Of a stretch of DNA of 64,000 nucleotides, positions 11,880 to 57,778 are shown one piece after another. The stretch is taken from NCBI GenBank assembly GCA_965221955.1, contig CBDCTA010000022.1, forward strand, positions 288,001 to 352,000, given 5' to 3'. Numbering within the stretch: the first letter of the stretch is position 1; the number at the start of each line of letters is the position of its first letter. The notes under the pieces were generated by a model, which was not told the origin of the DNA, did no database searches, and saw only the letters and a program-made list of their open reading frames with translations. This DNA is from Gammaproteobacteria bacterium. Its GTDB lineage: Bacteria > Pseudomonadota > Gammaproteobacteria > UBA4575. Made by a program: the position numbers and the translations under genes.

Positions 11880-12065
11880 TTTTATATATTATTTGTTGTT
11901 CGGTTCTTAATTAATGTCTTGTTCAATCACTACGCTCAATTACTATCGAACCAAGACGCTACGCAATCCATATCATGCCTTGACAGAGCTGCGAAGTATA
12001 AATTTTAGACCGTGAAATCTCAATAGAAACTAATGCATACACCTTTCGGCTTAGTACAAAATTAA

Positions 12066-12971: not shown

Positions 12972-12994
12972 CTGAAGCTCTGATTAATTGATAT

Positions 12995-13795: not shown

Positions 13796-13804
13796 GTTTT
13801 GAAA

Positions 13805-14431: not shown

Positions 14432-14449
14432 GAATAGAATAAAAAACCT

Positions 14450-16339: not shown

Positions 16340-16400
16340 GGTTACTTATTGTACTGAAGCACAGGAGATTACTCGACACCCCGAAAGTGTCATCACAAGC

Positions 16401-17750: not shown

Positions 17751-17775
17751 CAGCGCGCCCTTTTAAATAGCTATA

Positions 17776-19473
17776 TTAGTAAGCTTCGTTTTCGATACGT
17801 TTGGTGATGACATACTGTTGAATAATCGACAAAATATTATTCACTAACCAATACAATACTAAACCAGCCGGGAAGAACGCCATAAAAATAGACATCATAA
17901 TTGGCATCATGGCAAATATTTTTGCCTGCATAGGGTCAGGTGGTGCTGGGTTCAATTTAAATTGCACATACATGCTGATGCCCATTAGTAACGGCAACAC
18001 AAAAATAGGGTCGCGCACGGATAAATCCTGAATCCAAAACATAAATGGCGCTTGTCGTAACTCTACACTTTCAATTAACACCCAATATAAAGCCAAGAAC
18101 ACAGGCATTTGAATCAAAATGGGCAAACAACCTTTTGCTGGGTTGACCTTTTCTTTGCGGTATAAGTCCCAAGTGGCTTGACCAAGTTTTTGTTTGTCGT
18201 CTACATAGCGTTCTTGCAAGGCTTTAATACGTGGTTGCAATTTGCGCATACGCGCCATTGACTTGTAACTGGTTTCAGACAACTTATAAAAAATAAGTTT
18301 AATCACTACGGTGACCAAAATAATCGCCCAACCCCAGTTGCCTACCAACTTGTGGAACCACTGTAGCAACCAAAACAATGGTTTTGACAAAATGGAAAAC
18401 ATGCCGTAGTCGACGCTTAACTCTAAACCTTTGGCAAGGTCTTTCATGTCATCTTGAATTTTCGGGCCCACATACAAACGTCGATTGAATTCAGCACTTG
18501 AAGTAGGAGCAATCGTTTTTGCTTCTGAAAGCATACCAATCAATAACTGTTTCTCGCCCGCAGCTTTTACTTCTTTACTGTAAAAACGATTTTGCTCATC
18601 TTGTTCAGGTATCCATGCAGACACAAAGTAGTGTTGCAACACTGCAATCCAACCACCATCCACCGGCATATTGATAGGTTCATCTTGCACATCATCGAAA
18701 GCATGTTTGTGATACGCGCCATCAAAATAAGCGGTGCCCGTATAGGTTGGTAAACGTAACCAGCTGCGATTTTCTGGAACCGGACTATGGCGCAATTGTT
18801 GATATTGTCGACCCACCCAAGTTGTGTCGCCTTGATTCATTACGTGATGTTTAACATCAAAAACAAAGGACCCGCGATAAAAAGTGTAGCTTTTTTCAAC
18901 CTCTATTCCATTTTCACCCGTCCACAAAAGCTTTACCTGCAATTCATCTTCACCCTCGCCCAACTGATACTCGGTTTTATCAACGCGATATATTTCATGA
19001 TGTGTTGGTGCTGCGCCACGAATAGCTTGGCCATTGATTTTATCGTGCTGTAAACCGGATTGAGCAATATAGATACGCGCATCACTACGCATGAGTCGAA
19101 ACGCTTGGTCTTTTTGCTGTAAAGAAACTGGGTAGGTAGGTAGCTCCACTTGGCGAACATCACCACCGCGAGTATCAATAATCAGATCTAATACATCTGT
19201 ACGCACATGAATCTTTTTGCTTTTACTTTGTGGCTGATTCGTTTCGTTTACATTATTCGTTGTAGACGCCTGCGACTGTGGGGTATTTACTGCTTCGGGA
19301 ATATCATCTGAGCTTTCGCTGTAACTATTGCTATCAATAGCTTCGCCTATTTGCTGGCTGTTTACATCTTGTTGTGCAACGGATGGTGGCGTCTGTTCTT
19401 GTTGCCAGGTAAGCCAGATAATGTATAGCAAAAAAACGAGCGCTAAATACAAAAAGAATCTTTGGTTTTCCAT
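17776..19473 (-). CDS. yidC: Membrane protein insertase YidC
   Basis: VDYG, GNWGWAII, GCLPILIQMP, GLVLYW. Confidence 0.98.
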   Translation of the reverse strand: MENQRFFLYLALVFLLYIIWLTWQQEQTPPSVAQQDVNSQQIGEAIDSNSYSESSDDIPEAVNTPQSQASTTNNVNETNQPQSKSKKIHVRTDVLDLIIDTRGGDVRQVELPTYPVSLQQKDQAFRLMRSDARIYIAQSGLQHDKINGQAIRGAAPTHHEIYRVDKTEYQLGEGEDELQVKLLWTGENGIEVEKSYTFYRGSFVFDVKHHVMNQGDTTWVGRQYQQLRHSPVPENRSWLRLPTYTGTAYFDGAYHKHAFDDVQDEPINMPVDGGWIAVLQHYFVSAWIPEQDEQNRFYSKEVKAAGEKQLLIGMLSEAKTIAPTSSAEFNRRLYVGPKIQDDMKDLAKGLELSVDYGMFSILSKPLFWLLQWFHKLVGNWGWAIILVTVVIKLIFYKLSETSYKSMARMRKLQPRIKALQERYVDDKQKLGQATWDLYRKEKVNPAKGCLPILIQMPVFLALYWVLIESVELRQAPFMFWIQDLSVRDPIFVLPLLMGISMYVQFKLNPAPPDPMQAKIFAMMPIMMSIFMAFFPAGLVLYWLVNNILSIIQQYVITKRIENEAY

Positions 19474-19485
19474 ACTATTTTGTTT

Positions 19486-19725
19486 TTAATTATGTGTATG
19501 GTTTTCCGGAACCGGGTCTACACCGCCAGCATGCCATGGATGACAACTAGCAAGACGTTTTAAAGTAAGCCAACTGCCGCGATAGGCACCGTGTTTTTGC
19601 AATGCCTCTAATGCATACTGTGAACAGGTTGGATGGAACCTGCATTGTTGACCCAACCACGGGCTTAATACCAACCGATAAACCTTAACCAATACAATAA
19701 GAACTTTGCTAATTACTCTGTTCAT
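19486..19725 (-). CDS. yidD: Membrane protein insertion efficiency factor
   Basis: CRFHPTCSQY and CHPW..GG.DPVP. Confidence 0.97.
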   Translation of the reverse strand: MNRVISKVLIVLVKVYRLVLSPWLGQQCRFHPTCSQYALEALQKHGAYRGSWLTLKRLASCHPWHAGGVDPVPENHTHN

Positions 19726-19735
19726 AGTGGCCTAG

Positions 19736-20092
19736 TTAGTATTGTTCCCACAACGATTCCATTTGTAGTCTGAGCCTGTGTTTATACTTTGGTCTGTTAA
19801 TTGCTTTAATGGGCCGCTTTAAAATTACAATAAAGTCGTTTGCAGGTAATGACGTTTTAGCCAATCGAAAACTTTCTCGAATAATTCGCTTAATTATGTT
19901 TCGATCTACAGCACGTTTAGCGTGACGTTTTGCAACGATGACTCCTAGGCGCGGTTGCCCTATCTCATTTTCTCTAGATAGTATTGTAAAAAATTCGCTG
20001 CTCGATTTTGTTGCCTGATCAAAGACTCGAGTAAATTGGCTTGCGTTCTGTAGCCGATCCCGATGTGTGTACGCGTTAACTTTTGCTTGCAA
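19736..20092 (-). CDS. rnpA: Ribonuclease P protein component
   Basis: RLG..VAK....AV.RN.IKR..RE.FR motif; lies between rpmH and yidD. Confidence 0.95.
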   Translation of the reverse strand: MQAKVNAYTHRDRLQNASQFTRVFDQATKSSSEFFTILSRENEIGQPRLGVIVAKRHAKRAVDRNIIKRIIRESFRLAKTSLPANDFIVILKRPIKAINRPKYKHRLRLQMESLWEQY

Positions 20093-20125
20093 GAATTCTT
20101 TGTCAAAAAATCTAAAGCAAAATAA

Positions 20126-20260
20126 TTACGGAGCTAAACGTGCGCGTCCGCGTGCACGACGAGCATTGATTACTGCACGACCACCTTTTGTTTTCATTCT
20201 AGCTCTAAAGCCGTGTGTGCGTGCGCGCTTTAAGTTGCTAGGTTGATAAGTGCGTTTCAT
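20126..20260 (-). CDS. rpmH: 50S ribosomal protein L34 (below the ORF-track size cutoff)
   Basis: Manual translation: [44 protein letters not shown]. Confidence 0.98.
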
Positions 20261-20440
20261 GATATTCCAATTTAATTTTTAACTAATTTAAATCTTATTA
20301 ATTTAATTATTCTATTTTAGACTCCTAAGCCAAGTTTTAACTTAGCCCTACAATTAAATACTTAGAATAATTATTTAATAAGGTGCGCAAAAATAGTCGC
20401 GCTACTTACATTTGTCAACGGCTATTGTCTGCCATTAAAC

Positions 20441-20449
20441 AGTGGATAA
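20441..20449 (-). promoter_or_regulatory. DnaA box (1 mismatch) in the dnaA promoter region
   Basis: AGTGGATAA, reverse complement TTATCCACT, about 75 bp upstream of dnaA. Confidence 0.6.
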
Positions 20450-20524
20450 CAATCCTATTACTGGATAGACTGATCTACCCCATAACGATTTTACAATAAT
20501 TATAAGCATACTGGAGTAAGCTGC

Positions 20525-21871
20525 GTGTCTACTATTCTCTGGAAATCCTGTGTCCACAAACTCGAGTCTGAATTATCCGAGCAACAACTCAATACTTGGA
20601 TTCGGCCACTACATGCAATCGAGGAAAAAGGTGAACTCACCCTATTAGCACCGAATCGTTTTGTGCTCGATTGGGTACAAGATCATTTTCTTGCTCGTAT
20701 TGATGAGCTCATAGCTAGTGATAGTGCTACAAGTGGCCATAAGGTCAACCTCGAAATTGGTAGCAGTGAACGTAAAGTAGTTTCTCAAAGTAATGAACAG
20801 GCTGAGAAAATCCAGGCAGTAAAATCAACCACTGCCAAACTACAAAACTTCAGTCATAACCTTAATCCGAATTTCACTTTTGACACTTTTGTTGAAGGTA
20901 AATCTAACCAACTACCAAAAGCGGCAGCTCTACAAGTGGCTAATCACCCTGGTGAAGCCTACAACCCACTACTTATTTACGGTGGTGTAGGTCTTGGTAA
21001 AACACACTTATTGCATGCTGTTGGTAACCAAATGCTGGTACAAAACCCAGCTGCAAAAATTCTATATCTACACTCCGAGCGTTTTGTAGCCGACATGGTT
21101 AAGGCCTTGCAACATAATGCCATTAGTGAATTCAAACGTTTTTATCGCTCTGTAGATGCATTGCTTATTGATGACATCCAGTTCTTTGCAGGCAAGGAAC
21201 GTTCCCAAGAGGAATTTTTCCACACATTTAATACTCTCCTCGAAGGCCAGCGCCAAGTAATTTTGACTTGTGACCGCTATCCAAAAGAAGTTGAAGATTT
21301 ACAAGAGCGTTTAAAGTCGCGTTTTGGCTGGGGCTTAACACAATCTATTGAGCCTCCGGAACTAGAGACTCGTGTTGCTATCATGCAGCGCAAAGCTGAA
21401 TTACTACATATTGAGCTACCCAGTGAGGTCGCGTTTTTCATCGGTAAACGCATTCGTTCTAACATCCGCGAACTCGAAGGTGCGTTACGTAGAGTCATCG
21501 CAAATGCACAATTTACAGGCTCTGCCATCACTTTAGATTTTGCTAAGGAAGCACTACACGATTTACTAGCACTACAAGATAAGTTGGTAACGATTGATAA
21601 TATTCAAAAAACTGTTGCGGAGTATTTCAAAATCCGAGTTTCAGATCTGTTATCCGCACGACGCAGTCGCTCCATTACGCGCCCGCGACAAATTGCAATG
21701 TCTCTAGCAAAAGAATTAACCAACCACAGCCTGCCAGAAATTGGCGATGCGTTTGGTGGTAGAGATCATACGACCGTATTGCATGCATGCAGAAAAATTA
21801 CATGCTTGCGTGAAAGTGATACGCGTATTAGCGATGATTACATTAATTTATTGCGTAGCTTAAGCAGTTAA
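20525..21871 (+). CDS. dnaA: Chromosomal replication initiator DnaA
   Basis: [33 protein letters not shown]; GTG start. Confidence 0.99.
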
Positions 21872-22096
21872 TACATAACAAATTCACTTTCATGTTGATT
21901 GGCTGTGCATAAAAAGTGATATAGTTTGAACAACTTTTCTGTTACAGATTTATACCTCTGGTATTCAGCACAAAAGATCATATGTTGAACTGCTTTCACT
22001 CAAGTAATATTTTTATAAGGTGTTGACTTTAAAGTATTAATTAATGTTATCCACAGAAAAATAGTCGCTCTATAACAACTACTAAATATATATAAA
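21872..22096. other. Probable oriC (dnaA-dnaN intergenic region)
   Basis: TGTGCATAA (21904-21912, reverse complement TTATGCACA). Perfect TTATCCACA (22047-22055), then a spacer and DnaA-trio-like TAT AAC AAC TAC TAA (22071-22085). AT-rich. Confidence 0.7.
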
Positions 22097-23197
22097 ATGC
22101 AGTTATCTATAACACGCGAAGATCTCCTAAAACCTCTTCAACAGATCATTGGTGCAGTGGAACGTAGACAAACGATGCCTGCGCTAAGTAACCTTCTTCT
22201 TCGTGGTAATGATAAAGATCTGACCATAACGGCTACCGATCTAGAAGTAGAATTGGTTGCTAATTTGGAAATTGGTCTGGAAGAACAAGGCACGACTACA
22301 ATTCCAGCAAGAAAACTTTTAGATATTTGTCGTTCTTTACCAGATCAAGCAAAAATTGCGATTCAATCCAGTAGTGAAAAAGTTAAAGTGAGTTCAGGGC
22401 GCAGTCGCTTTTCATTAGCCACATTGCCCGCAGAAGATTTTCCAACCATTGATGATTTAGAACTTGATCAAAATGTAGTAATTAGCGAAGCTGAATTTAA
22501 AGCTCTAATTGATAAAACCGCTTTTGCCATGGCGCAGCAAGATGTTCGTTATTATTTGAATGGATTGTTGCTCGAGGTCGATGCTGAGCAAGTTCGTACT
22601 GTTGCAACGGATGGGCATCGTTTAGCTCTCTCACAGCTAGATCATAAGTCTGATATTGAAGGTTCACGACAAATTATCTTGCCACGCAAAGGCGTGCAGG
22701 AGTTGCAGCGATTGTTGACCAACGAAGACAACAAGATAACCATTGCTTTAGGTAAAAATCACATGCGGGTGAATTTAGCTAATTTGCAATTTACTTCTAA
22801 GCTGATTGATGGCCGTTTCCCGGAGTATCAGCGTGTCTTGCCAGAAGAGTGTGACAACCGAGCAAAAATCGATAAGGTTCAACTCAAACAAGCACTTACA
22901 AGAGCTTCAATTTTATCGAATGAGAAGTACAAAGGTATTCGTTTAATTTTGGATGACAACACATTAGTCATTCAGGCGCACAATCCAGAACACGAAGAAG
23001 CTGAAGATGAGATTGAAATTGAGTACCAAGGTGACCGTTTAGAAGTGGGCTTCAATGTTGTGTATCTTTTAGATGTACTTAATGCATTGGAATCCGATGC
23101 ATTGGAAGTCATTATTCAAGATGCTAATAGCAGCGCACTTATCGTGTCTCCAGGTTCTCAAGCCAGCCGCTACGTTGTAATGCCAATGCGACTCTAA
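22097..23197 (+). CDS. dnaN: DNA polymerase III beta clamp
   Basis: ATDLE, QQDVRYYLNG, ATDGHRLA, SKLIDGRFPEY, YVVMPMRL. Confidence 0.99.
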   Translation: MQLSITREDLLKPLQQIIGAVERRQTMPALSNLLLRGNDKDLTITATDLEVELVANLEIGLEEQGTTTIPARKLLDICRSLPDQAKIAIQSSSEKVKVSSGRSRFSLATLPAEDFPTIDDLELDQNVVISEAEFKALIDKTAFAMAQQDVRYYLNGLLLEVDAEQVRTVATDGHRLALSQLDHKSDIEGSRQIILPRKGVQELQRLLTNEDNKITIALGKNHMRVNLANLQFTSKLIDGRFPEYQRVLPEECDNRAKIDKVQLKQALTRASILSNEKYKGIRLILDDNTLVIQAHNPEHEEAEDEIEIEYQGDRLEVGFNVVYLLDVLNALESDALEVIIQDANSSALIVSPGSQASRYVVMPMRL

Positions 23198-23211
23198 GGC
23201 ATAAGTTAGCC

Positions 23212-24288
23212 TTGGCGCTGCAAACACTCCTGATTCAAAACTTACGCATTATTAATCAGCTAGAAATTACTCTGGCTGCAGATGCCAATTTATTTATTGG
23301 TGAAAACGGAGCGGGTAAAACTAGTATTCTGGAGGCAATCGATATTCTAAGCCGCGGACGTTCTTTTCGAGAACGCCGCACACACCCTTTATTACGGAAA
23401 CAGGCCAGTAGTATCATTGTCAGCAGCAAGCTAAATACGGCTGATGGCAGTATTCATCTTGGGATTCAGAAATCCGCTAAACAAACCTTGCTGCATGTAA
23501 ACCAAGAAAAAGTAAGCTCAGTCTCTGAACATGCGAGTCATCTCCCTGTAGTCAGCATGCATCCGGATTCGCACCAACTGATCCAAGGAGGGAGTAAGCA
23601 GCGCAGAAACTATCTGGACTGGTCTGCGTTTCACGTGAAACCAACTTTCCTACAGCATTGGCGAAATTACAATAAAAGTCTGCGTCAGCGTAACCAAGCC
23701 TTGCGAGATCAGCGTCCAACGGAGGAAATAAACGTGTGGGCTAAGAAGTTAAGTGAGCATGCAGAATGCGTAGATCGCGAAAGATCGGAGATTTTCGGCC
23801 AACTTAACCCTATTATCGAAGGATATAGCCGAAGATTACTGCCAGAGGCCGAAATTAACGTAAAATATGCTAGAGGTTGGCCAGAAGAGCAGAATTTAGA
23901 GCAAACGCTAAACGAGCTACTTGATCAAGAGCGCAAGCTAAAATCCACACGTGCTGGTGCTCATCGAGCAGAACTGAAACTACTCCTAAATGAGCAAGAT
24001 GCCGCCGCTACGGCTTCGAGAGGGCAGCAGAAACTCATCGCAGCGTGTTTGTTGCTGGCACAGATTGAGCATGTTCAGCAGCTCAGCGCGCAAAAATGTG
24101 TTGTGTTGTTAGATGATGTACGAGCAGAACTCGACCAAGAACATGCGCATGCATTAATCACTGCGTTACAAGACCTAGGTTGCCAAGTGTTTATCACAGC
24201 AATTGAACGGGAACAAATCGAGCTGACTGGTTGGCAGGACACTAAGGTGTTTCACGTGAAACAAGGGTACTGTAAGCCAATGAACTGA
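23212..24288 (+). CDS. recF: DNA replication/repair protein RecF
   Basis: GENGAGKTSILEA, SRGQQK, LLDDV..ELD; TTG start. Confidence 0.97.
   Translation: MALQTLLIQNLRIINQLEITLAADANLFIGENGAGKTSILEAIDILSRGRSFRERRTHPLLRKQASSIIVSSKLNTADGSIHLGIQKSAKQTLLHVNQEKVSSVSEHASHLPVVSMHPDSHQLIQGGSKQRRNYLDWSAFHVKPTFLQHWRNYNKSLRQRNQALRDQRPTEEINVWAKKLSEHAECVDRERSEIFGQLNPIIEGYSRRLLPEAEINVKYARGWPEEQNLEQTLNELLDQERKLKSTRAGAHRAELKLLLNEQDAAATASRGQQKLIAACLLLAQIEHVQQLSAQKCVVLLDDVRAELDQEHAHALITALQDLGCQVFITAIEREQIELTGWQDTKVFHVKQGYCKPMN
23627..23642. promoter_or_regulatory. parS site (14/16) inside recF
   Basis: CGTTTCACGTGAAACC versus consensus TGTTTCACGTGAAACA. Confidence 0.75.
24248..24263. promoter_or_regulatory. parS site (perfect) at the recF 3' end
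   Basis: TGTTTCACGTGAAACA is an exact consensus palindrome, near oriC and parAB. Confidence 0.92.
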
Positions 24289-24342
24289 TAAATAAAAATG
24301 AGCTCTTTGAGCAAGGATTTACAAGCTCTTCAAGCCTATGCT

Positions 24343-24351
24343 TGATATAAT
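24343..24351 (+). promoter_or_regulatory. Extended -10 sigma70 promoter for gyrB
   Basis: TGATATAAT (TGn-TATAAT) ends 30 bp before the gyrB ATG. Confidence 0.55.
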
Positions 24352-24374
24352 AAATGGTTAATTGATTACACTAA

Positions 24375-26831
<2,457 letters not shown>

Positions 26832-26986
26832 AAAAGAACAAAAAAGCACCTGAGAGTATTTGGTTAGTCAGGTTTAAATCAGCTTTAGTCCACGTTTAGC
26901 TAGCGTATATTGTTGATTTTAAAGAAAATGTCCCCATATTGATTTAGTAATTGAAAAATTCAATCTAGACAACTAGGGAGTTATTT

Positions 26987-27559
26987 ATGGGAATCGGCAG
27001 CATCATATTTTTAGCCATCGTTGTAGTGTTAGCGGGGTACTTCATTGTTATTTATAACAGCCTAGTTAATTTAAAACATGCCGTAAGTAAGGCTTGGTCA
27101 AATATCGACGTGTTGCTCAAACAGCGCCATGACGAAATTCCAAAGCTGGTCGAAGTGTGTAAGCAATACATGGGTTTTGAACAAGAAACTTTAACCAAAG
27201 TCATGGAAGCACGTTCAAGAGTTTCCAATGCGCAACAATCTGGTGATATGAACGCATTAGGTTCTGCGGAAGGAATGTTACGCATGGGATTAGGTAATTT
27301 ATTCGCAGTTGCAGAAGATTATCCTGAGCTTAAAGCCAACGAAACGTTTAGACATTTGCAAGAAAGAATTTCTGGCTTAGAAAATTCGATTGCTGATCGT
27401 CGAGAGTTCTATAACGAAAGTGTAAATCGCAACAATGTTCGCATTGAACAATTCCCAGATATTATCGTAGCCAGAATGATGGCGTTTAAGGCATTTGACT
27501 TGCTTGAGTTTGCTGAATCAGAAACGCAAGACGTAGACGTTAAAGCGTTATTTAGTTAA
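26987..27559 (+). CDS. lemA: LemA family protein
   Basis: N-terminal TM, YN.LV, AWSNIDVLLKQRHD.IP.LV, VAE.YPELKA, RREFYN..V. Confidence 0.95.
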   Translation: MGIGSIIFLAIVVVLAGYFIVIYNSLVNLKHAVSKAWSNIDVLLKQRHDEIPKLVEVCKQYMGFEQETLTKVMEARSRVSNAQQSGDMNALGSAEGMLRMGLGNLFAVAEDYPELKANETFRHLQERISGLENSIADRREFYNESVNRNNVRIEQFPDIIVARMMAFKAFDLLEFAESETQDVDVKALFS

Positions 27560-30940: not shown

Positions 30941-31483
30941 GTGAGTCGTTCTTTAAAACTATCATATCTAATTCGTTTCATTATTAGTTGTGTGTTTTGT
31001 ATGGCGATATTTACTAATAGCACTGCAACCGCTTCTCCAGAATTGCATGTTGAGGATAAAGCCGATTACGTAGTGGTTAAAAAAGCAGAACGTAAACTTT
31101 ATCTTTATCGTGGAATGGAAATTTTAAAAACTTACCGCATCGCCTTAGGCAAACAACCTGATGGGCATAAAATTCGTGAAGGTGATTCGCGCACACCAGA
31201 AGGTATTTACACATTAGATTGGCGTAACCCAAATAGTAAGTTTTACCGCTCCATTCATATTTCCTACCCAAGTAAATCTGATAATCGCGATGCACGCGAA
31301 CGAGGTGATTCACCGGGTGGTGCCATTATGATTCATGGCCAACCCAGTAACTGGGTAGAAAAAACCAAACTATTATTCAATCAAGATGATTGGACAGAAG
31401 GTTGCATTGCAGTGCAAGATCATGAAATGGATGAAATTTGGAATGCTGTGGAAGATGGCACGCCGATAGAGATTATTCCTTGA
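30941..31483 (+). CDS. L,D-transpeptidase (YkuD domain) family protein
   Basis: V.KAERKL.L, GD.RTPEG.Y, IMIHG...WTEGCIAV. Confidence 0.92.
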   Translation: MSRSLKLSYLIRFIISCVFCMAIFTNSTATASPELHVEDKADYVVVKKAERKLYLYRGMEILKTYRIALGKQPDGHKIREGDSRTPEGIYTLDWRNPNSKFYRSIHISYPSKSDNRDARERGDSPGGAIMIHGQPSNWVEKTKLLFNQDDWTEGCIAVQDHEMDEIWNAVEDGTPIEIIP

Positions 31484-31509
31484 ACCCATAGGTGCGCGAA
31501 TATGATGTC

Positions 31510-31523
31510 CATCAGGGATGATG
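31510..31523 (+). promoter_or_regulatory. GGGA-loop hairpin (possible CsrA/RsmA site)
   Basis: CATCA-GGGA-TGATG, a perfect 5-bp stem. Confidence 0.3.
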
Positions 31524-31583
31524 CATCTGATTAAAGACAAGCTTTAATTAATTTACAGGTTGGAAAATTTAGATACTTACCAT

Positions 31584-31613
31584 TTTGACTGCTAACGACC
31601 CAAAGCGGGCATT
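31584..31613 (+). repeat. 30-bp cassette-flanking inverted-arm site, copy 1 (core class A)
   Basis: TTTGACTGCT-AACGACCCAA-AGCGGGCATT, 28 bp upstream of the globin gene. Confidence 0.8.
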
Positions 31614-31641
31614 CTGCTGTGTAAAATCTAGAGACAATTAA

Positions 31642-32049
31642 ATGGATAATTTAAAGGCAAAAGATCAATTCTTACAGAGTCTTGAGCGTTGTGAAGAAGA
31701 CGAGTCATTTATTCCTTCATTCTATAAGCGATTTTTATCTACATCAGATGAAATTAAGGATAAATTTCGGCATACAGATTTTGAGAAGCAGAATAAAATG
31801 TTAATTCGCTCTCTTAAACTTGCTGCTGGAGCGACCATTGGAGAGCCTGAGGCGTTGCAAGAGCTTAGAGATCGCGCAGAAACCCATGATCGTCATCACC
31901 TCAATATTAAACCAGAATTATATGATGCTTGGTTAAATGCGGTTATTGAGACTGCGCGTGAATATGATGCTCAGTGGAATGACAATATTGAGTCTATTTG
32001 GCGAAGTATACTCGGACATGTGATTAACCATATGATCAAGTTTTATTAA
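31642..32049 (+). CDS. Single-domain globin
   Basis: S..RC....F...FY.RFL, F..TDF..Q..ML, H....LNI.P.LY..W and W..W patterns; 135 aa. Confidence 0.88.
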   Translation: MDNLKAKDQFLQSLERCEEDESFIPSFYKRFLSTSDEIKDKFRHTDFEKQNKMLIRSLKLAAGATIGEPEALQELRDRAETHDRHHLNIKPELYDAWLNAVIETAREYDAQWNDNIESIWRSILGHVINHMIKFY

Positions 32050-32078
32050 ATGACCGCTATTGGCCGAAAACGGACATT
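32049..32078 (+). repeat. 30-bp cassette-flanking site, copy 2 (core class B)
   Basis: AATGACCGCT-ATTGGCCGAA-AACGGACATT; overlaps the globin stop codon by 1 nt. Confidence 0.88.
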
Positions 32079-32115
32079 CAAATATGTTAATAAAAAATTG
32101 AAAAAGAGTAATCAG

Positions 32116-32724
32116 ATGGCTAGATCAATTCAAAGGTTTTTCATATTAACTGCATCAATACTTACTGTTTATTTTCTTTATTTACCTATAATTCAAGTTG
32201 TACAAGCAGATGTTGGTGCAGAGCTTCGTAAAAAAGGGGAACAGTGTAGGAGTTGGGTCGAGGCAGGAGACCTCATGCGTCATCAAGCCAGTAGATGTTT
32301 AGCTGCGTGCGAAAGATATGGCCATGCAGTACAAAAGCATCCAGATATGTTATCAGATGCAGGTGTTCAGGGCTGTAAAGATATTTTTTTAAGAACGAAG
32401 AACAAAGTTCTTGGAACGAAATCTAAAACATCCTCTTCAGAAATAACAAAGTCCACACTATCTTCAATGCCCGATGTTGAAGGAATCTATATGCAAGCTA
32501 TGCAAGGAAAACTTCGAGTACAAGTAGAAGGACGTGACGACTGGGATACAATTTGCAATGGATTTATAAGAATCAAAGACCGAAAAGGTGAATATGCTCG
32601 CAAACTAAAAGGTCGTGATCGTGTGCGTCTTATCGGCATTACCTACAATCCTGACGAGCCCAGTGGGCGGCCGCGTGGCATATGTTCAGCGGAACGCATT
32701 GAAATACTTGGACAGAGTCAGTAG
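32116..32724 (+). CDS. Hypothetical exported Cys-containing protein
   Basis: Signal peptide MARSIQRFFILTASILTVYFLYLPIIQVVQA with AAGAG upstream. The ORF-track start at 32050 (MTAIGRKRTF) is only the translated repeat. Confidence 0.7.
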   Translation: MARSIQRFFILTASILTVYFLYLPIIQVVQADVGAELRKKGEQCRSWVEAGDLMRHQASRCLAACERYGHAVQKHPDMLSDAGVQGCKDIFLRTKNKVLGTKSKTSSSEITKSTLSSMPDVEGIYMQAMQGKLRVQVEGRDDWDTICNGFIRIKDRKGEYARKLKGRDRVRLIGITYNPDEPSGRPRGICSAERIEILGQSQ

Positions 32725-32742
32725 TTATTCATGACAGATTTC

Positions 32743-32772
32743 AATGTCTGCTTTTGGCCGAAAGCGGATACT
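32743..32772 (+). repeat. 30-bp cassette-flanking site, copy 3 (core class B)
   Basis: AATGTCTGCT-TTTGGCCGAA-AGCGGATACT; overlaps the stop of the convergent DUF4197 gene. Confidence 0.88.
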
Positions 32773-33502
32773 ATTTGCTAAATACCTTTTTCAATAAATC
32801 TGTAGTTCTTGCAACAGGGTCAGTGCGGATTTTAGCTTCTTCTATAGCCAAGTAATGAAAAATCCCATCCATTCCTTTTTCCACCACGTAACTGCTCAAG
32901 TCTGATTTTACATCGGGCACTAATGGAAATTTTTTGTATTGCCCAATTGCGTTGTCATAACTTTTAATCGCACCAGCTTCCGCTAAGCTGTCATTCACTA
33001 TTGGGGTAAATTCTTTTACTAAGTCAGGCGTCATTTTAGATTGAAAGTAACGTGTTGCGGCATCATTTTCTCCAGCTAGAATGTTGCGTGCATCGTCTAA
33101 TGTCATCGCTTGAATAGCATTAATAAATAATTCTTTGGCTTTCGGTGTAGCGATTTCAGCCGCTCTGTTCAGTCTGGTTTCTAAATCATCCAGCATGCCG
33201 CTCATGCCCACTTTATCTAGAGTAGATTGCACTTTTTGCAAGCTGTTTGGTAAAGGGATATGGATATTGGGGTCCGCATTGAATCCGTCTGTAGCCCCTA
33301 GCTGATTGATGACTAGATCTGAACCAACTTGTAGGGCCTCTTTTAAACCAGAGGCGATTTCACCATCTGTAAGAGAACTTGCAGTGGAGGAAGTAATTCC
33401 AGAATCTTCTAAAAATTCTTTGGCTTTATCAAACCAACCTGCATGTAATGAACTTGCAAGTAAGAATATAAAAAACGTAATAGTTATAAACTTTAATTTC
33501 AT
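32771..33502 (-). CDS. DUF4197 family exported protein
   Basis: EIASGLKEAL.VG, I.IPLP, LNRAAE.A.P, EEAKIR.DP.ARTT.LLKKVF. Confidence 0.9.
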   Translation of the reverse strand: MKLKFITITFFIFLLASSLHAGWFDKAKEFLEDSGITSSTASSLTDGEIASGLKEALQVGSDLVINQLGATDGFNADPNIHIPLPNSLQKVQSTLDKVGMSGMLDDLETRLNRAAEIATPKAKELFINAIQAMTLDDARNILAGENDAATRYFQSKMTPDLVKEFTPIVNDSLAEAGAIKSYDNAIGQYKKFPLVPDVKSDLSSYVVEKGMDGIFHYLAIEEAKIRTDPVARTTDLLKKVFSK

Positions 33503-46041: not shown

Positions 46042-46944
46042 TCAATTAGTATTAGAAAACAAATAATGAACAAAGATTCCTAAAAATACCAACATGCCAA
46101 AATAATTGTTATTTAAAAAAGCATAAAAACATCGATCAGGTAATCGGTGTTTAATCAGTATTTGTTGATATACAAAACACATACTCGCTAATGCGATACC
46201 TACATAAAATAACCAACCCAGCTCAGCGTTTATTCCAACCAGCACTAAACAAATAATTACTAATACTTGTAGCATACCGACAGCGACTTTATCCATCGGA
46301 CCAAACAATATGGCTGTGGACTTTACGCCAATTTTTATATCATCTTCCCGATCCACCATTGCATATAAAGTGTCATAAGCTGTAGTCCAAATGACAGCCG
46401 CAGTGAATAACAACCAGGCTATGGGCGGTGGAAATTCATTCGTGATTGCAGCGAAGGCCATTGGTATTGAAAATGCGAATGCAATGCCAAGGTGCACTTG
46501 TGGTAAAAAATGAAAACGTTTCATAAACGGATAAGTCGCTGCAAAAAATGCAGCACCAACAGCAAACAATATTGTCAGTTGATTTAAGAAGACCAACGCA
46601 ATTAGAAGAGCTATTATTGCCAACACGGCACAAACCATCAGAGCTTCTTTAGGTTGTACGAGCCCAGCAGCAACAGGACGGTCTCGGGTGCGGCCTATAA
46701 ACCGATCGATATTTCGATCTGCATAATCATTGATAGCACAACCTGCAGAGCGAGTAAGCACAACGCCAATAATAAACACTAATAAAATTTTAATGTCTGG
46801 AATACCATTCGCTGCAATAAAAAGCGCCCATAGAGTGGGCCAAAGTAATAGAAGAATTCCGATTGGTTTATCTAGACGAACCAACTTTGCATATAAAGTT
46901 AAACGATTTATATCTATAGGTGATTTGTTTAAATGCTGAATCAT
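46042..46944 (-). CDS. ubiA: 4-hydroxybenzoate octaprenyltransferase
   Basis: RLDKPIG.LLLLWP, GCAINDYADR, YDTLYAMVDREDD.KIGVKSTA. Confidence 0.97.
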   Translation of the reverse strand: MIQHLNKSPIDINRLTLYAKLVRLDKPIGILLLLWPTLWALFIAANGIPDIKILLVFIIGVVLTRSAGCAINDYADRNIDRFIGRTRDRPVAAGLVQPKEALMVCAVLAIIALLIALVFLNQLTILFAVGAAFFAATYPFMKRFHFLPQVHLGIAFAFSIPMAFAAITNEFPPPIAWLLFTAAVIWTTAYDTLYAMVDREDDIKIGVKSTAILFGPMDKVAVGMLQVLVIICLVLVGINAELGWLFYVGIALASMCFVYQQILIKHRLPDRCFYAFLNNNYFGMLVFLGIFVHYLFSNTN

Positions 46945-46991
46945 GATTACGTTTACAAATTGTGTTTTATAAACATTGAATTACAGGCCAC

Positions 46992-47837
46992 TTAAAGACT
47001 CGGTTTTGGTGCGAGGTCTGGACGAAAGTAATGATAGGCCATACCCGTGTCAGGTCGTTTGCCGTGCCACAAATAAAAGGCTTCTGCTGCTTGTTCTAAT
47101 AGCATACCGAAACCATCGACCACCTGTTTTGCACCTTGTTGTTTAGCCCATTGCATAAAAGGTGTGTCTTGATTACTGTACAAAAGATCATAGCAACAGG
47201 TATTAAGACTGATGATTTCGATAGGAAGTTCAACATTGTTGTCTTGTAGGCCCGCAGAGGTGGCGTGTAGAACTAAATCAAAGTTTTGTTTTGGAATATC
47301 GCCCAACGCACAGCTAGCAATATTTCCAAACTTGTTAAATTGATTGGCAATAGCATCTGCTTTGCTCACAGTACGATTCGCAATGATTAATTCAGCTGGG
47401 CTTTCTTGTAACAAGGGTTCAACGATTCCTTGCGTTGCGCCTCCGGCTCCGACGATAAGAATTTTTTTATCCGATAATTGTAAGCGTAAAGTTTTTTTCA
47501 AATCGCGTAGTAACCCAATACCATCAGTATTTGCGCCTACAAATTTTCCAGAACTGTTTTTATAAATTGTATTCACAGCACCAGCATGTTCAGCATATTC
47601 ACTTAGCTCATCAACAAATTTACAAGCAGCATTTTTAAACGGCACGGTTACATTTAATCCTTTACCGCCACGATTGAAAAAATCGTTCACTGTATCGTTG
47701 AACTCATTTTCTTCAGCCAATATTTTTTCATAACTAAGCATTTCGCCTGTTTGATCTGCAAATAAAAGGTGAATGTCAGGAGATTTGCTGTGTTCGATGG
47801 GGTTGCCGATTACAGCATAACGATCAACGTTACTCAC
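46992..47837 (-). CDS. aroE: Shikimate dehydrogenase
   Basis: GNPI.HSKSP, G.NVTVPFK, GAVNT, NTDG.G, GAGGA, GML.EQAA. Confidence 0.97.
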   Translation of the reverse strand: MSNVDRYAVIGNPIEHSKSPDIHLLFADQTGEMLSYEKILAEENEFNDTVNDFFNRGGKGLNVTVPFKNAACKFVDELSEYAEHAGAVNTIYKNSSGKFVGANTDGIGLLRDLKKTLRLQLSDKKILIVGAGGATQGIVEPLLQESPAELIIANRTVSKADAIANQFNKFGNIASCALGDIPKQNFDLVLHATSAGLQDNNVELPIEIISLNTCCYDLLYSNQDTPFMQWAKQQGAKQVVDGFGMLLEQAAEAFYLWHGKRPDTGMAYHYFRPDLAPKPSL

Positions 47838-47846
47838 AACTAAGAC

Positions 47847-48863
<1,017 letters not shown>

Positions 48864-48915: not shown

Positions 48916-48959
48916 GCATAGGGATATGCGAATAAGAGTAGCAACAGGGATGTTGCTAC
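48916..48959 (+). ncRNA. Tandem GGGA-loop hairpins, candidate Csr/Rsm-binding RNA element
   Basis: GCATA-GGGA-TATGC (48916-48929) and GTAGCAACA-GGGA-TGTTGCTAC (48938-48959). Confidence 0.4.
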
Positions 48960-48983: not shown

Positions 48984-49013
48984 AATGTCTGCTTTCGGCC
49001 AATAGCGGTCATT
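48984..49013 (-). repeat. 30-bp cassette-flanking site, copy 4 (core class B)
   Basis: Minus strand AATGACCGCT-ATTGGCCGAA-AGCAGACATT; 28/30 identical to copy 2. Confidence 0.88.
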
Positions 49014-49041
49014 CGCCACCATACTTACGAATCAATGATTC

Positions 49042-49236
49042 TTAATCTATATTAAAAACTTGCAAAGGCTTTGCCTTATCGTCCTTTGAGCTTTCCATTT
49101 CATATAGCCAAGGAGGTTTGTCTTTTATATAAGTAAGATATGGATATCTTCTTATTACCTCATAAGGATCATTGGCATTTATATAAAGCCAAAGACCTCC
49201 CATTCCATAGTCATGACAAAATAAATATTTTTGCAT
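49042..49236 (-). CDS. Small hypothetical protein with DYGMGGLW motif (possibly truncated)
   Basis: 64-aa AT-rich ORF exactly bracketed by repeat copies 5 and 4. The reading frame stays open for 10 codons past the TAA. Confidence 0.6.
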   Translation of the reverse strand: MQKYLFCHDYGMGGLWLYINANDPYEVIRRYPYLTYIKDKPPWLYEMESSKDDKAKPLQVFNID

Positions 49237-49251
49237 TTATCTTAAATGTAT

Positions 49252-49282
49252 AATGTCCGGCTTTGGATCGTTAGCGGACATT
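49252..49282 (-). repeat. Cassette-flanking site, copy 5 (core class A, 31 bp)
   Basis: Minus strand AATGTCCGCT-AACGATCCAA-AGCCGGACATT. The arms are perfect inverted repeats apart from one extra base, and the core is 9/10 identical to copy 1. Confidence 0.88.
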
Positions 49283-49390
49283 TTGAAAATTTGTCAACTT
49301 GCTTTTAATAATCAGTGCACCTAAAGCTTTGAAATGGTCTTTTTCATTCCTCGATGGATAGCATGATTCGCACATTAAACGTGTGCCCAC

Positions 49391-49406
49391 GCTTTGGTTC
49401 GTTAGC
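49391..49406 (-). repeat. Partial cassette-flanking site, copy 6 (inner arms plus class A core)
   Basis: GCTTTGGTTCGTTAGC is 15/16 identical to 49260-49275; 9 bp past the hemF stop. Confidence 0.6.
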
Positions 49407-49415
49407 ATGTGATAT

Positions 49416-50327
49416 TTAGATCCATTCTCGTACTGGTAAAAACTCCGTATACAGTTTTTCTTCTTCACTGCTTGGTTCTGGATGGTAATCATATTCCCAA
49501 CGCACATTGGGAGGTAGTGACATTAAAATCGATTCCGTGCGCCCACCAGATTGCAAGCCAAATAAGGTGCCACGGTCATAGACCAAGTTAAATTCCACAT
49601 AACGGCCACGACGATAGAGTTGAAAATTTCGTTGTCTTTCATTAAATTTGTGATCTTTGCGTTTTTCAACGATAGGTAAGTACGCTTTGGTAAAATGATC
49701 TCCGACACTTTTGATTAGATTAAAATTTTTTTCAAAGCCACCTTCATTGATGTCATCAAAAAATAAACCACCTACACCACGTGCTTCGTTGCGATGTTTA
49801 ATATAAAAATATTCATCACACCATTGTTTAAATCTTGGGTAATAACTTTCATCTACCGCATCGCAGGCTTGTTTTGCAGTTTGGTGCCAAAATACGGTAT
49901 CTTCTTTAAAACCGTAATAGGGCGTGAGATCAAACCCGCCACCAAACCACCACACCGGTTCTTCACCTTCTTTTTCGGCAATGAAAAACCGCACATTGCA
50001 ATGTGAGGTGGGCACGAAAGGATTGTTTGGGTGAATAACTAAAGACACGCCCATTGCCTGGAAGTTACGTCCAGCTAATTCGGGTCGTTGTGTAGTTGCG
50101 GCAGGAGGAAGATTGTTGCCAAAAACATGTGAAAACCCTACTCCTGCTTGCTCGAATACTCCACCATTTTGCAATACACGTGTCCGCCCTCCACCGCCAT
50201 CTGGTCGTTCCCAATCGTCTTGCTTAAATTTTGCAACGGCATCGAGGTTTTCAACTTCTGTGCAAATGTTGTCTTGTAGGTTTTTTAGATAATCTAAAAC
50301 CTTATCGGTATTGGGTTGCATTGTCAT
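49416..50327 (-). CDS. hemF: Oxygen-dependent coproporphyrinogen III oxidase
   Basis: [61 protein letters not shown]. Confidence 0.98.
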
Positions 50328-56805: not shown

Positions 56806-57778
56806 ATGAGTAAAGATCTAAACATCATTTTTGCAGGTACGCCAGAGTTTGCGGCAGCAGCATTGCAAGCTTGTATAACCAGTCCACACAATGTGGTTGC
56901 AGTGTATTGTCAACCTGATCGTCCAGCAGGCCGTGGTCGAAAAATTCAATACGGGCCAGTTAAGCGATTAGCCCTTGAAGCAGGTATTCCAGTTTTTCAA
57001 CCACAACGCTTAGAGCAAAAACAATTTGCTGAACTAAAAAAATTAAATGCTGATGTGATGTTAGTAAGTGCTTATGGTTTGTTGCTTCCCAAACAAGTTT
57101 TAAGAATTCCGAAGTTAGGCTGCATCAATATTCACGCATCATTGTTACCTAAGTGGCGTGGTGCAGCGCCGATTCAACGCGCAATTATTGCTGGTGACCC
57201 ACAAAGTGGCATCAGCATTATGCAGATGGTAGAGGAGCTTGATGCTGGCCCTGTACTGAAAACCTTTGCATGCGATATCCAAGCCAACGATACAGGCACG
57301 AAGTTTACATGACCGCCTCGCAAAAATAGCAGCGGATGAAATTGTTGGGGTACTAGAGAGTTTGCAAAAACAAGAGTTGGATGTAACTGAGCAAGACGAA
57401 ACCCAAGTGAGTTATGCACATAAACTGAGCAAACAAGAAGCGAATATTGATTGGCAACAAAGTGCCGTGGAGATTGAGCGTAAAATACGCGCATTTAATG
57501 CATGGCCCGTTGCGTATACTTATTTAGACGAGCAACGTTTGCGAGTTTGGCAAGCCGAAATATGCGCTCCAGTAGAAAATAAAGCACCTGGTCAAATTGT
57601 TACGGCTGATAAACAAGGCATTCAAGTTGCTACCGGTGCTGGCACAATTAACCTTATTTCTGTGCAACTTGCAGGTGGTAAAGTGATTCGTGCACAAGAC
57701 TTTATCAATGCGCATGATGTGCAGGGAAAATGTTTTTCTGCGAAACCTACTAAAAACCGAGTTAGAGCTTCGGCATGA
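56806..57778 (+). CDS. fmt: Methionyl-tRNA formyltransferase, split by a +1 frameshift near 57295-57302
   Basis: The first ORF has [33 protein letters not shown] and LDAG. The second continues SLHDRLA...YAHKLSK.EA.IDW...IRAFN.WP. Confidence 0.95.

What the first reader, a model, noticed from the sequence alone, without database searches (positions are those of the whole stretch)
48984..49413. Second cassette array inserted between hemF and hemB
Seen on the minus strand: hemF stop > partial site (49391-49406) > about 100 bp holding a 34-codon ORF (49271-49375, ending NVR-stop inside the next site) > site (49252-49282) > 64-aa gene > site (48984-49013) > hemB upstream region. Copy 4 is 28/30 identical to copy 2 despite unrelated cargo and opposite strand. 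This independent recurrence within co-oriented heme genes supports repeated site-mediated insertion.
Basis: partly seen in the sequence, partly recalled or inferred. Interest (0 to 1): 0.78.

Follow-up and report, generated by a model that had tools for sequence, protein, structure and literature searches.

The report
Palindromic repeat cluster between heme genes
The three "sites" between hemF and hemB are real copies of a 28-base palindromic repeat found between genes in many Proteobacteria, and they look more like a dispersed REP-type repeat than like the joints of an integron-style gene cassette array, although that reading is not excluded.

Summary
Three copies of one short site lie in the 576-bp hemF-hemB gap, around a 64-codon gene. 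Three more flank two genes at 31.6-32.8 kb (6 pattern matches against 0.09 expected).

The unit is 28 bp: 11-bp inverted arms around a 6-nt asymmetric centre. One scan of species-representative genomes found at least 159 stretches carrying it, mostly Alphaproteobacteria MAGs, plus Gamma- and Betaproteobacteria.

- **Placement:** units sit mostly outside genes (107 of 120).
- **Arrangement:** they occur singly, in head-to-tail tandems with 17-55-nt linkers and no cargo, or in co-oriented runs (79 of 84 adjacent pairs).
- **Neighbours:** housekeeping or transporter genes. No recurrent recombinase was found.
- **Known families:** no match in Rfam, plasmids or the literature strings searched.

The 64-aa gene is real: 171 relatives, pLDDT 91, and 31% GC against 42-43% in its neighbours.

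Best reading (0.5): a REP-like dispersed palindromic repeat of an apparently undescribed, co-oriented type. The cassette reading keeps about 0.2.

The parts
49416..50327 (-). hemF (oxygen-dependent coproporphyrinogen III oxidase), upstream flank of the interval
   Evidence: Pfam PF01218, 1.1e-136
49391..49406 (-). Decayed A-type copy (c6). Only the 16-nt core is kept and both arms are degenerate. It starts 9 nt after the hemF stop.
   Evidence: Pattern match, alignment. It is weak alone in the profile search, E = 15.
49283..49390 (-). Linker between two A-type copies. It holds the 34-codon frame (49271-49375), which is probably non-coding.
   Evidence: No Pfam match. In relatives the DNA upstream of A-type units is a linker carrying a GGTTGGAA-like motif. 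Here that motif is only loosely kept.
49253..49281 (-). A-type copy (c5), 29 bp with one extra base in the right arm. It lies 16 nt upstream of the 64-aa gene's ATG.
   Evidence: E = 1.6e-6. It is the only window copy with a clearly stable hairpin, z = -3.7.
49042..49236 (-). 64-aa gene of an unnamed small-protein family (conserved Y-D-Y-G-M-G-G-x-W core). Its composition looks foreign.
   Evidence: phmmer: 171 relatives at E <= 1e-3 and 5 at <= 1e-10. No Pfam family. AlphaFold2 pLDDT 91.2. GC 31.3%.
48985..49012 (-). B-type copy (c4), 29 nt after the stop of the 64-aa gene
   Evidence: 2 mismatches to the B consensus; E = 2.3e-10
48938..48959 (-). Separate terminator-like hairpin with a T-rich tail, between c4 and the hemB upstream region
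   Evidence: pattern match only
47847..48839 (-). hemB (porphobilinogen synthase), downstream flank
   Evidence: Pfam PF00490, 1.1e-139
31585..31612 (+). First array, A-type copy (c1), preceded about 28 nt upstream by a CAGGTTGGAAA motif
31642..32049 (+). First array, globin-like 135-aa gene
   Evidence: Pfam Globin 6.7e-6. 86 homologues, one at 74% identity on a 2.67-Mb contig.
32050..32077 (+). First array, B-type copy (c2). It starts directly after the globin stop codon.
32116..32724 (+). First array, 202-aa ORF whose N-terminus reads like a signal peptide (by eye, not tested with a tool)
   Evidence: No Pfam family. 7 homologues.
32744..32771 (+). First array, B-type copy (c3), between convergent genes. 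It scores as terminator-like.

Best explanation
The three sites are copies of a 28-bp palindromic intergenic repeat. One is fairly intact, one carries a 1-nt insertion and one has decayed. The unit has 11-bp inverted arms (ATGTCCGC plus three A/T positions) around a 6-nt asymmetric centre, and it is widespread in Proteobacteria.

It behaves like a REP-type dispersed repeat. It lies in non-coding DNA, often just past a stop codon. It occurs singly, in head-to-tail tandem clusters, or in runs over neighbouring gaps.

Inferred mechanism:
- Copies are laid down in intergenic DNA by a sequence-specific enzyme encoded elsewhere in the genome.
- That enzyme reads both arms. Arm changes are almost all one-sided, so the sequence is what is kept, not the pairing.
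- It acts on one strand or in one direction, which would give the strong local co-orientation.
- Copies then decay in place.

The 64-aa gene is a real, probably acquired small gene that lies between two copies. That it arrived through them is not shown.

Shown: the family, its architecture, its distribution, its placement and the lack of a linked recombinase. Inferred: the mode of spread and any role at RNA 3' ends.
For: - By my own arithmetic the pattern carries about 39 bits, so about 2 chance matches were expected.
- **Consensus:** 188 distinct copies give the consensus. An arm-based scan of the fetched loci finds 455 distinct units, 325 with a 12-nt middle and 107 with a 13-nt middle, in a few centre types.
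- **Placement:** 107 of 120 oriented units lie outside ORFs of 150 aa or more. The flanking-gene classes are convergent 31, unidirectional 25 plus 12, divergent 22.
- **Tandem clusters without cargo:** periods of 59 nt (L050, L066, L006) and about 83 nt (L019, L129, L105) in Gammaproteobacteria. In Alphaproteobacteria the linkers are about 17 nt.
- **Neighbours:** ordinary chromosomal genes. ABC_sub_bind has 26 members in 15 loci, and ABC_tran 13 in 11. Others include mraZ/mraW, trpC, PPK2, isocitrate lyase and arginase. No recombinase family recurs.
- **Window content:** no integrase or transposase among the 40 window ORFs scanned.
- **Arm changes:** in 219 copies found by their centre alone, changes are one-sided far more often than two-sided (91 vs 7, 29 vs 5, 14 vs 1, 18 vs 5, 50 vs 3).
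- **Array 1 cargo:** the globin gene is 74% identical in a relative, close to core genes at 67-81%.
Against: - **Co-orientation:** adjacent units are co-oriented in 79 of 84 pairs, and in 26 of 26 units across four gamma loci. Described REP families are mostly paired in opposite orientation (PMC3733652, abstract and section 6).
- **No REP tag:** there is no GTAG or CGTC end tag.
- **Clustering in Gammaproteobacteria:** units form islands. In L019, 8 lie within 4.5 kb of 16 kb. In L050, 7 lie within 6 kb. In the window, 6 lie in two clusters (P about 1e-4).
- **Low strict counts:** complete chromosomes gave few strict matches (8, 1 and 2 in OZ252002.1, OZ245331.1 and OY969102.1). The scan was cut short, so these are lower bounds.
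- **Site architecture:** 11-6-11 is that of tyrosine-recombinase core sites.
- **Cross-class conservation:** near-identity of the unit across proteobacterial classes is unusual for REP families.
- **Foreign cargo:** the 64-aa gene has 31% GC.
- **No enzyme:** no spreading enzyme was identified.
Confidence: 0.5

Rival explanations
1. Cassette reading (the first reader's, sharpened). The 28-bp units are core sites of a site-specific recombinase encoded elsewhere, probably a tyrosine recombinase. Circular DNA carrying one unit integrates at a resident unit. This gives co-oriented units around each insert, so arrays of accessory genes build up between core genes, like integron arrays without a linked integrase.
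For: - 11-bp inverted arms plus a 6-nt asymmetric centre, with the sequence conserved rather than the pairing.
- 79 of 84 adjacent units are co-oriented, even where the genes between them face the other way (L050).
- Gamma arrays hold small, varied genes: GFA, DUF1330, RRM_1, a DksA/TraR-type zinc finger and unnamed ORFs.
- The 64-aa gene has 31% GC against 42-43% in its neighbours.
- Synteny with the relative OZ252002.1 breaks exactly after ykuD, where array 1 begins.
- The clustering has P about 1e-4.
Against: - No recombinase next to any array, and none recurring in the flanked loci.
- Many singleton units between housekeeping genes.
- Tandem units 17-55 nt apart with no cargo.
- Segments between units can hold several genes or large ones, such as a 548-aa sulfatase or transporter operons.
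- No cargo family recurs between units in different loci.
- Centre types differ within one array (A and B differ at 3 of 6 centre positions). By established knowledge of tyrosine recombinases, that should hinder exchange.
- Arrays show no consistent GC offset.
- No match on 72,556 plasmids beyond one weak hit.
Confidence: 0.22
2. Protein-binding sites. The units are binding sites for a conserved dimeric DNA-binding protein, such as a regulator or a chromosome-organising protein. Their spread reflects selection for binding, not mobility.
For: - Both arms are conserved at the sequence level, with one-sided changes.
- Hairpin energies of the window copies are mostly no better than shuffles: 4 of 6 have |z| < 1 on the coding strand.
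- The unit is conserved across classes.
- Some copies lie 16-40 nt upstream of a start codon (c1, c2, c5).
Against: - Copies also lie between convergent genes and right after stop codons (c3, c6).
- Downstream genes show no orientation preference (47 same, 45 opposite).
- Tandem multi-copy clusters, decayed copies and several centre types fit a proliferating repeat better.
- The strong polarity of a site with palindromic arms is not expected for a simple operator.
Confidence: 0.1
3. RNA-level element. The units are kept because, once transcribed, the stem-loop ends or protects the 3' end of the upstream mRNA. This is a function that can coexist with the REP-like origin.
For: - Four of six window copies start 0-29 nt after a co-oriented stop codon.
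- In L019, units follow the GFA and DUF1330 stops by 19 and 24 nt.
- c3 scores as terminator-like.
- The upstream gene runs the same way as the unit in 66 cases against 39.
- Units often sit after ABC substrate-binding genes. By established knowledge, that is the classical place of REP stabilisers.
Against: - There is almost no compensatory change in the stem.
- No T-rich tail: after the first base downstream, no position is conserved.
- Weak folding for most window copies.
- No Rfam family matches.
- Orientation is independent of the neighbouring genes in L050.
Confidence: 0.1

Closest known systems
REP / BIME elements and REPINs (small palindromic intergenic repeats; in some lineages spread by RAYT transposases)
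   Same: - A 20-40-bp imperfect palindrome.
- Intergenic, mostly downstream of genes.
- Occurs as singletons plus regularly spaced clusters, with several loop or centre variants in one family and decayed copies.
- Frequent next to periplasmic binding-protein genes.
   Different: - Units are head-to-tail and co-oriented (79 of 84), not alternating or in inverted pairs.
- No GTAG tag.
- No RAYT was seen, and this could not be tested genome-wide.
- The unit is almost the same in Alpha-, Beta- and Gammaproteobacteria, whereas REP families are usually lineage-specific (PMC3733652 passages; search-listing abstract of the RAREFAN preprint 10.1101/2022.05.22.493013).
CGTC-tagged REPs, including Neisseria dRS3/NIME (Di Nocera et al. 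2013, PMC3733652)
   Same: - Mostly alphaproteobacterial and found in several phyla.
- Not linked to transposase genes.
- The tag may read TGTC.
- Some members form large clusters (section 6 and passages read).
   Different: - Those have 8-9-bp stems starting with A/T pairs, 4-5-nt loops, a CCA tail and mostly head-to-head dimers.
- Here the arms are 11 bp, the centre is 6-7 nt, there is no tail, TGTC is inside the paired arm, and the arrangement is head-to-tail.
- The paper's four supplementary files hold none of the three unit strings searched.
- Its consensus figures are not held, so the comparison rests on the text.
Integron attC sites and integrase-less attC clusters (CALINs)
   Same: Co-oriented sites follow small, varied, often unnamed genes between core genes. 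No integrase is nearby.
   Different: - The unit is 28 bp, not about 57-141 bp.
- It has one pair of arms, not two.
- The family consensus has no inverse-core/core boxes.
- There are tandem units without cargo.
- Inter-site segments hold several genes, on either strand.
dif/Xer core sites and plasmid pdif modules
   Same: The 11-6-11 architecture with an asymmetric centre. In pdif modules, short sites bound small gene modules.
   Different: - There are many copies per chromosome, here close to the dnaA region, rather than one at the terminus.
- Units are in direct rather than alternating orientation.
- They are absent from the plasmid collection.
- As I recall the dif consensus, the sequence is unlike it. 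This was not tested.

Membership tests
REP-type dispersed palindromic repeats | Short (20-40 bp) imperfect palindrome repeated in one genome and across related genomes | tested here: met
   A 28-bp unit. There are 6 copies in the window and 455 distinct units in the fetched loci.
REP-type dispersed palindromic repeats | Located in intergenic DNA, mainly downstream of genes | tested here: met
   107 of 120 units lie outside ORFs of 150 aa or more. Convergent plus unidirectional contexts number 68, against 22 divergent.
REP-type dispersed palindromic repeats | High copy number per genome (more than about 100) | not testable with these tools
   No whole genome was available. Complete chromosomes gave 8, 1 and 2 strict matches, which are lower bounds.
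REP-type dispersed palindromic repeats | Terminal GTAG or CGTC tag (Di Nocera 2013) | tested here: not met
   The consensus has no such unpaired tag. Its TGTC lies inside the paired arm.
REP-type dispersed palindromic repeats | Clustered units in alternating or inverted orientation (BIME, REPIN, head-to-head dimers) | tested here: not met
   79 same-orientation against 5 opposite adjacent pairs. All units are co-oriented in L050, L019, L006 and L066.
REP-type dispersed palindromic repeats | Cognate RAYT (Y1 transposase) gene flanked by units | not testable with these tools
   Needs whole genomes. No protein family other than transporters recurs in the flanks.
Integron attC / cassette array | attC of about 57-141 bp with two pairs of inverted boxes, including inverse-core and core motifs | tested here: not met
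   The unit is 28 bp with one pair of arms. Only the A-type copies carry a partial inverse-core-like hexamer, and no partner box is present.
Integron attC / cassette array | Integron integrase and attI at one end of the array | tested here: not met
   No integrase domain in the 40 window ORFs scanned, nor in L019, L050 and five other gamma loci.
Integron attC / cassette array | Variable cassette content between conserved sites in related genomes | not tested
No syntenic pairs exist among the fetched loci.
Tyrosine-recombinase core site (dif/Xer-like) | Two inverted binding arms of about 11 bp around a 6-8-bp asymmetric overlap region | tested here: met
   The consensus is 11-6-11, and a second class is 11-7-11.
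Tyrosine-recombinase core site (dif/Xer-like) | A cognate recombinase, and recombination products bounded at the centre | not tested
   No recombinase was found nearby. No presence/absence pairs were available.
pdif modules | Plasmid-borne modules bounded by sites in alternating orientation | tested here: not met
   Orientation is direct. The plasmid searches gave one weak hit and none.

The most novel reading that the evidence does not exclude
The 28-bp 11-6-11 unit is the core site of an unrecognised site-specific recombination system that works in trans and is spread across Proteobacteria. It would build co-oriented arrays of accessory genes between core genes, without a linked integrase. 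That would make it a second, integron-independent cassette system. The hemF-hemB and ykuD-downstream arrays would be two of its landing places.
Probability: 0.2. Interest if true: 0.85.

Novelty: new variant of a known kind. Interest (0 to 1): 0.42.

Why it matters
If these are simply REP-like repeats, the 'cassette array' is an ordinary by-product. Repeats gather in neighbouring gaps around poorly conserved genes, and the finding mainly warns against reading site-gene-site patterns as integron-like.

The family itself still has some interest. The unit is nearly the same across Alpha-, Beta- and Gammaproteobacteria, it is strongly co-oriented, it has recombination-site architecture, and it has no match in Rfam. 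I found no description in the strings and papers I searched.

It would also explain a class of spurious small ORFs in alphaproteobacterial annotations (for example L032:7867-8046).

If the cassette reading were right, it would be a new route of gene gain in chromosomes that carry no integron.

Tried and rejected
- **Stable hairpin (attC- or terminator-like):** DNA folds of the six copies on both strands show clear stability only for c5 (z -3.7 and -2.6), with c3 marginal on its coding strand only (z -1.95). The rest are within one SD of shuffles.
- **A longer, roughly 130-bp shared element upstream of A-type copies in both window arrays:** the alignment looked suggestive, but blastn gave only E 0.02-0.1 including the site itself. 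What survives is a short GGTTGGAA-like motif about 28 nt upstream of A-type units, in 5 of 7 aligned sequences.
- **Known RNA family:** none at gathering score in the window or in 8 loci, and none relevant at E <= 1 in 4 loci.
- **Plasmid-borne modules:** one weak 38-nt hit and no hit.
- **Literature by sequence string and by topic:** only unrelated primer hits, nothing for the peptide strings, nothing relevant by taxon and topic. Br-REP1 and Br-REP2 of Bradyrhizobium are different sequences (PMC5082802 passages).
- **Presence/absence test among the fetched loci:** no syntenic pairs. The best is 2.6 kb at 73%.
- **Recurrent small cargo between units:** none.
- **A 2.1-kb duplication in L035:** not bounded by units.
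- **Orientation against chromosome half in complete genomes:** inconclusive, because the chromosome start points are unknown. Units lie on the G-rich strand in 32 of 46 loci, but this is confounded with gene strand.
- **GC offset of arrays:** not consistent.
- **The 64-aa gene as an ORFan:** the word-indexed search found only itself. The full phmmer search overturned this with 171 relatives.
- **Function of the 64-aa protein:** the best PDB fold match has E 0.26, and Atlas scores reach only 0.85.
- **tRNA genes as attachment sites:** none in the window.

Full report
**What is in the interval.** On the minus strand, hemF (49416-50327) and hemB (47847-48839) are clear (Pfam 1e-136 and 1e-139). 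They are separated by 576 bp. That gap holds, in order:
- a decayed site core at 49391-49406, 9 nt after the hemF stop;
- about 105 nt of linker;
- a full site at 49253-49281, 29 bp with one extra base;
- a 64-codon ORF at 49042-49236;
- a full site at 48985-49012;
- a separate terminator-like hairpin at 48959-48938;
- the hemB upstream region.

Three more copies on the plus strand flank a globin-like gene and a 202-aa gene at 31585-32771.

**Is it more than chance?**
- The 16-nt core pattern occurs 6 times against 0.09 expected.
- A profile built from related genomes finds five copies at E 2e-10 to 2e-6. The hemF-side copy reaches only E = 15, so that copy rests on its core and its position.
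- No other intergenic gap in the window has a copy.
- Six sites falling into at most two runs of adjacent gaps has P about 1e-4.

**Surroundings.** The window is ordinary chromosome around dnaA: the atp operon, gidAB and parAB homologues, dnaA/dnaN/recF/gyrB, and topA-tsaC-hemF...hemB-aroE-ubiA (names of the first groups assigned from ORF order and sizes, not all scanned). There are no tRNA genes and no Rfam match. None of the 40 ORFs scanned has an integrase, transposase or resolvase domain.

- By my arithmetic about two chance matches were expected.
- Most are Alphaproteobacteria MAGs: Pseudolabrys, Xanthobacteraceae, Hyphomicrobiales, Sphingomonas, Henriciella.
- There are also Gammaproteobacteria: two complete MAG chromosomes, Thiotrichales and Coxiellaceae MAGs, Lysobacter soli and Noviluteimonas gilva.
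- Betaproteobacteria (Pigmentiphaga kullae) are present, plus a few contigs binned to other phyla, which may be mis-binned.
- From 188 distinct copies the consensus is a 28-bp unit. It has 11-bp perfectly inverted arms around a 6-nt asymmetric centre, and nothing is conserved outside it.
- Searching by arms alone gives 455 distinct units in the fetched loci. Their middles are 12 nt (325) or 13 nt (107) and fall into a few centre types.
- In 219 copies found by their centre alone, the arms are 77-96% Watson-Crick paired at five of six positions (58% plus 28% G-T at the sixth). Changes are almost all one-sided (91 vs 7, 29 vs 5, 14 vs 1, 18 vs 5, 50 vs 3).
- So the sequence of both arms is what is kept, not the pairing. 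In line with this, most window copies do not fold better than shuffles.

**How the units are arranged elsewhere.**
- They are mostly outside long ORFs (107 of 120). The contexts are convergent 31, unidirectional 37 and divergent 22.
- In alphaproteobacterial MAGs they often stand in head-to-tail doublets with a conserved linker of about 17 nt. They frequently lie beside ABC substrate-binding genes (26 members in 15 loci) and ABC ATPase genes (13 in 11).
- In Gammaproteobacteria they occur as two centre types, A and B, the same two as in the window.
- They appear as singletons between housekeeping genes (mraZ/arginase, trpC, PPK2, isocitrate lyase).
- They appear in tandems with periods of 59 or about 83 nt and unrelated linkers.
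- They also appear in islands of 5-8 units within 4-6 kb.
- A-type units are preceded about 28 nt upstream by a GGTTGGAA-like motif in 5 of 7 aligned cases, including window array 1.
- Adjacent units are co-oriented in 79 of 84 pairs. This holds even where the genes between them face the other way (L050).
- Units lie on the G-rich strand in 32 of 46 loci, and both window arrays follow this. It is confounded with gene strand.

**A relative.** OZ252002.1 (locus L050) shares xthA, a parA-like gene and ykuD with the window at 76, 81 and 67% protein identity.
- Synteny ends right after ykuD, where window array 1 starts.
- The relative's own array lies 3.4 kb further on. It holds a 77-aa ORF, a DksA/TraR-type gene, a split molybdopterin oxidoreductase, a flavin reductase and a sulfatase.
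- A second array in that genome (L019) holds GFA, RRM_1, DUF1330 and unnamed small ORFs, with an IS6-type transposase 3.4 kb away but no integrase.

This is suggestive of accessory islands, but it is not a clean insertion/empty-site pair.

**The cargo.**
- The word-indexed search made the 64-aa protein look like an orphan. A full phmmer search found 171 relatives at E <= 1e-3 and five at <= 1e-10.
- Most relatives are 70-90 aa, share a Y-D-Y-G-M-G-G-x-W core and have no Pfam family. One relative is fused to an Imm53-like region.
- AlphaFold2 with 61 sequences gives pLDDT 91.2.
- No PDB fold match is significant (best E 0.26), and the Atlas gives only weak leads. So this is a real small gene of unknown function.
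- Its GC is 31.3%, against 41.7% and 42.9% for hemF and hemB.
- The 34-codon frame has no support. It lies in what is linker DNA in relatives.
- In array 1, the globin has 86 homologues, including one at 74% on a 2.67-Mb contig and 66% in a planctomycete. The 202-aa protein has 7 homologues.

**Interpretation.** The balance favours a REP-like dispersed palindromic repeat. The points for this are:
- intergenic placement;
- singletons between housekeeping genes;
- regularly spaced tandem clusters without cargo;
- several centre variants and decayed copies;
- no linked recombinase.

It is not a typical member.
- It lacks the GTAG or CGTC tags, the short loops and the CCA tail of the families catalogued by Di Nocera et al. 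(PMC3733652; I read passages and section 6, and searched its four supplementary files for three unit strings without a hit).
- It is head-to-tail where those families are mostly head-to-head.
- It is nearly the same across proteobacterial classes.

The cassette reading is not excluded. Four points all fit it:
- the 11-6-11 layout is that of tyrosine-recombinase core sites;
- the co-orientation is what integration at a resident site would give;
- the gamma islands hold integron-like cargo;
- the 64-aa gene looks foreign.

Against it stand the cargo-less tandems, the singletons, the multi-gene and large inter-site segments, mixed centre types within one array, the lack of any recombinase nearby, and the lack of recurring cargo.

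I put the REP-like reading at 0.5 and the cassette reading at about 0.2. Binding-site and RNA-3'-end readings get about 0.1 each, and the RNA reading is compatible with the first.

**Limits.**
- Copy number per genome is unknown because the scan was cut short.
- 'Not described' rests only, and the consensus figures of PMC3733652 are not held.

Noticed in passing
window 56806-57778: fmt (methionyl-tRNA formyltransferase) is split into two overlapping frames. Formyl_trans_N ends at 57312 and Formyl_trans_C is read from 57266. The frame change lies near 57290-57305. It is either a real frameshift or an assembly indel. An indel would also bear on the extra base in site copy c5.
   Followed up: partly
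window about 12000-27000: The window spans the dnaA region (gidAB, parAB, mnmE, yidC, dnaA at 20525, dnaN, recF, gyrB; names assigned from ORF order and sizes, these ORFs were not scanned). Cumulative GC skew has its minimum near 21-22 kb. Further on, the sign of the skew follows blocks of gene orientation (33-41 kb and 46-53 kb are negative).
   Followed up: partly
window 31544-31554; L019, L050, L105, L129 linkers: A conserved CAGGTTGGAAA-like motif lies about 28 nt upstream of A-type units in 5 of 7 aligned cases. Its spacing to an A/T-rich hexamer at the unit's edge loosely resembles a -35/-10 pair by eye. The promoter scan of 31300-32900 listed nothing there.
   Followed up: partly
L032:7867-8046 and L051:12003-12194 (also L013:146-370, L060:1018-1248): Translated tandem units in alphaproteobacterial MAGs give spurious small ORFs with recurring peptide motifs. 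Such repeats probably seed false 'hypothetical proteins' in annotations.
   Followed up: no
L050:9079-11053: Inside the relative's array, a molybdopterin oxidoreductase is split into two ORFs (Molybdopterin, then Molydop_binding). It is possibly a pseudogene.
   Followed up: no
L019:2388-3086: An IS6/IS240-type DDE transposase gene lies 3.4 kb from the start of the relative's second array. It is the only transposase seen near any gamma array.
   Followed up: no
P0119 (178 aa) and window 49042-49236: One relative of the 64-aa protein carries a C-terminal Imm53-like region (7e-5, below the Pfam cut-off). This hints that the family may be immunity-like. The window protein is shorter (64 aa) than most relatives (70-90 aa).
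   Followed up: partly
window 15907-15924: A weak half-unit match (E = 0.04) lies inside the 629-aa ORF 14450-16339 (mnmG by position). It is probably chance.
   Followed up: no
window 47837-47847 and 46944-46992: hemB sits between hemF and aroE. From memory, hemF-aroE adjacency is common in Pseudomonas-like gene orders, so hemB itself may be a lineage-specific placement. This was not tested.
   Followed up: no
L035:2636-7037: A 2.1-kb segment is duplicated at 97.7% identity, the two copies 217 bp apart. It is not bounded by the palindromic units.
   Followed up: yes
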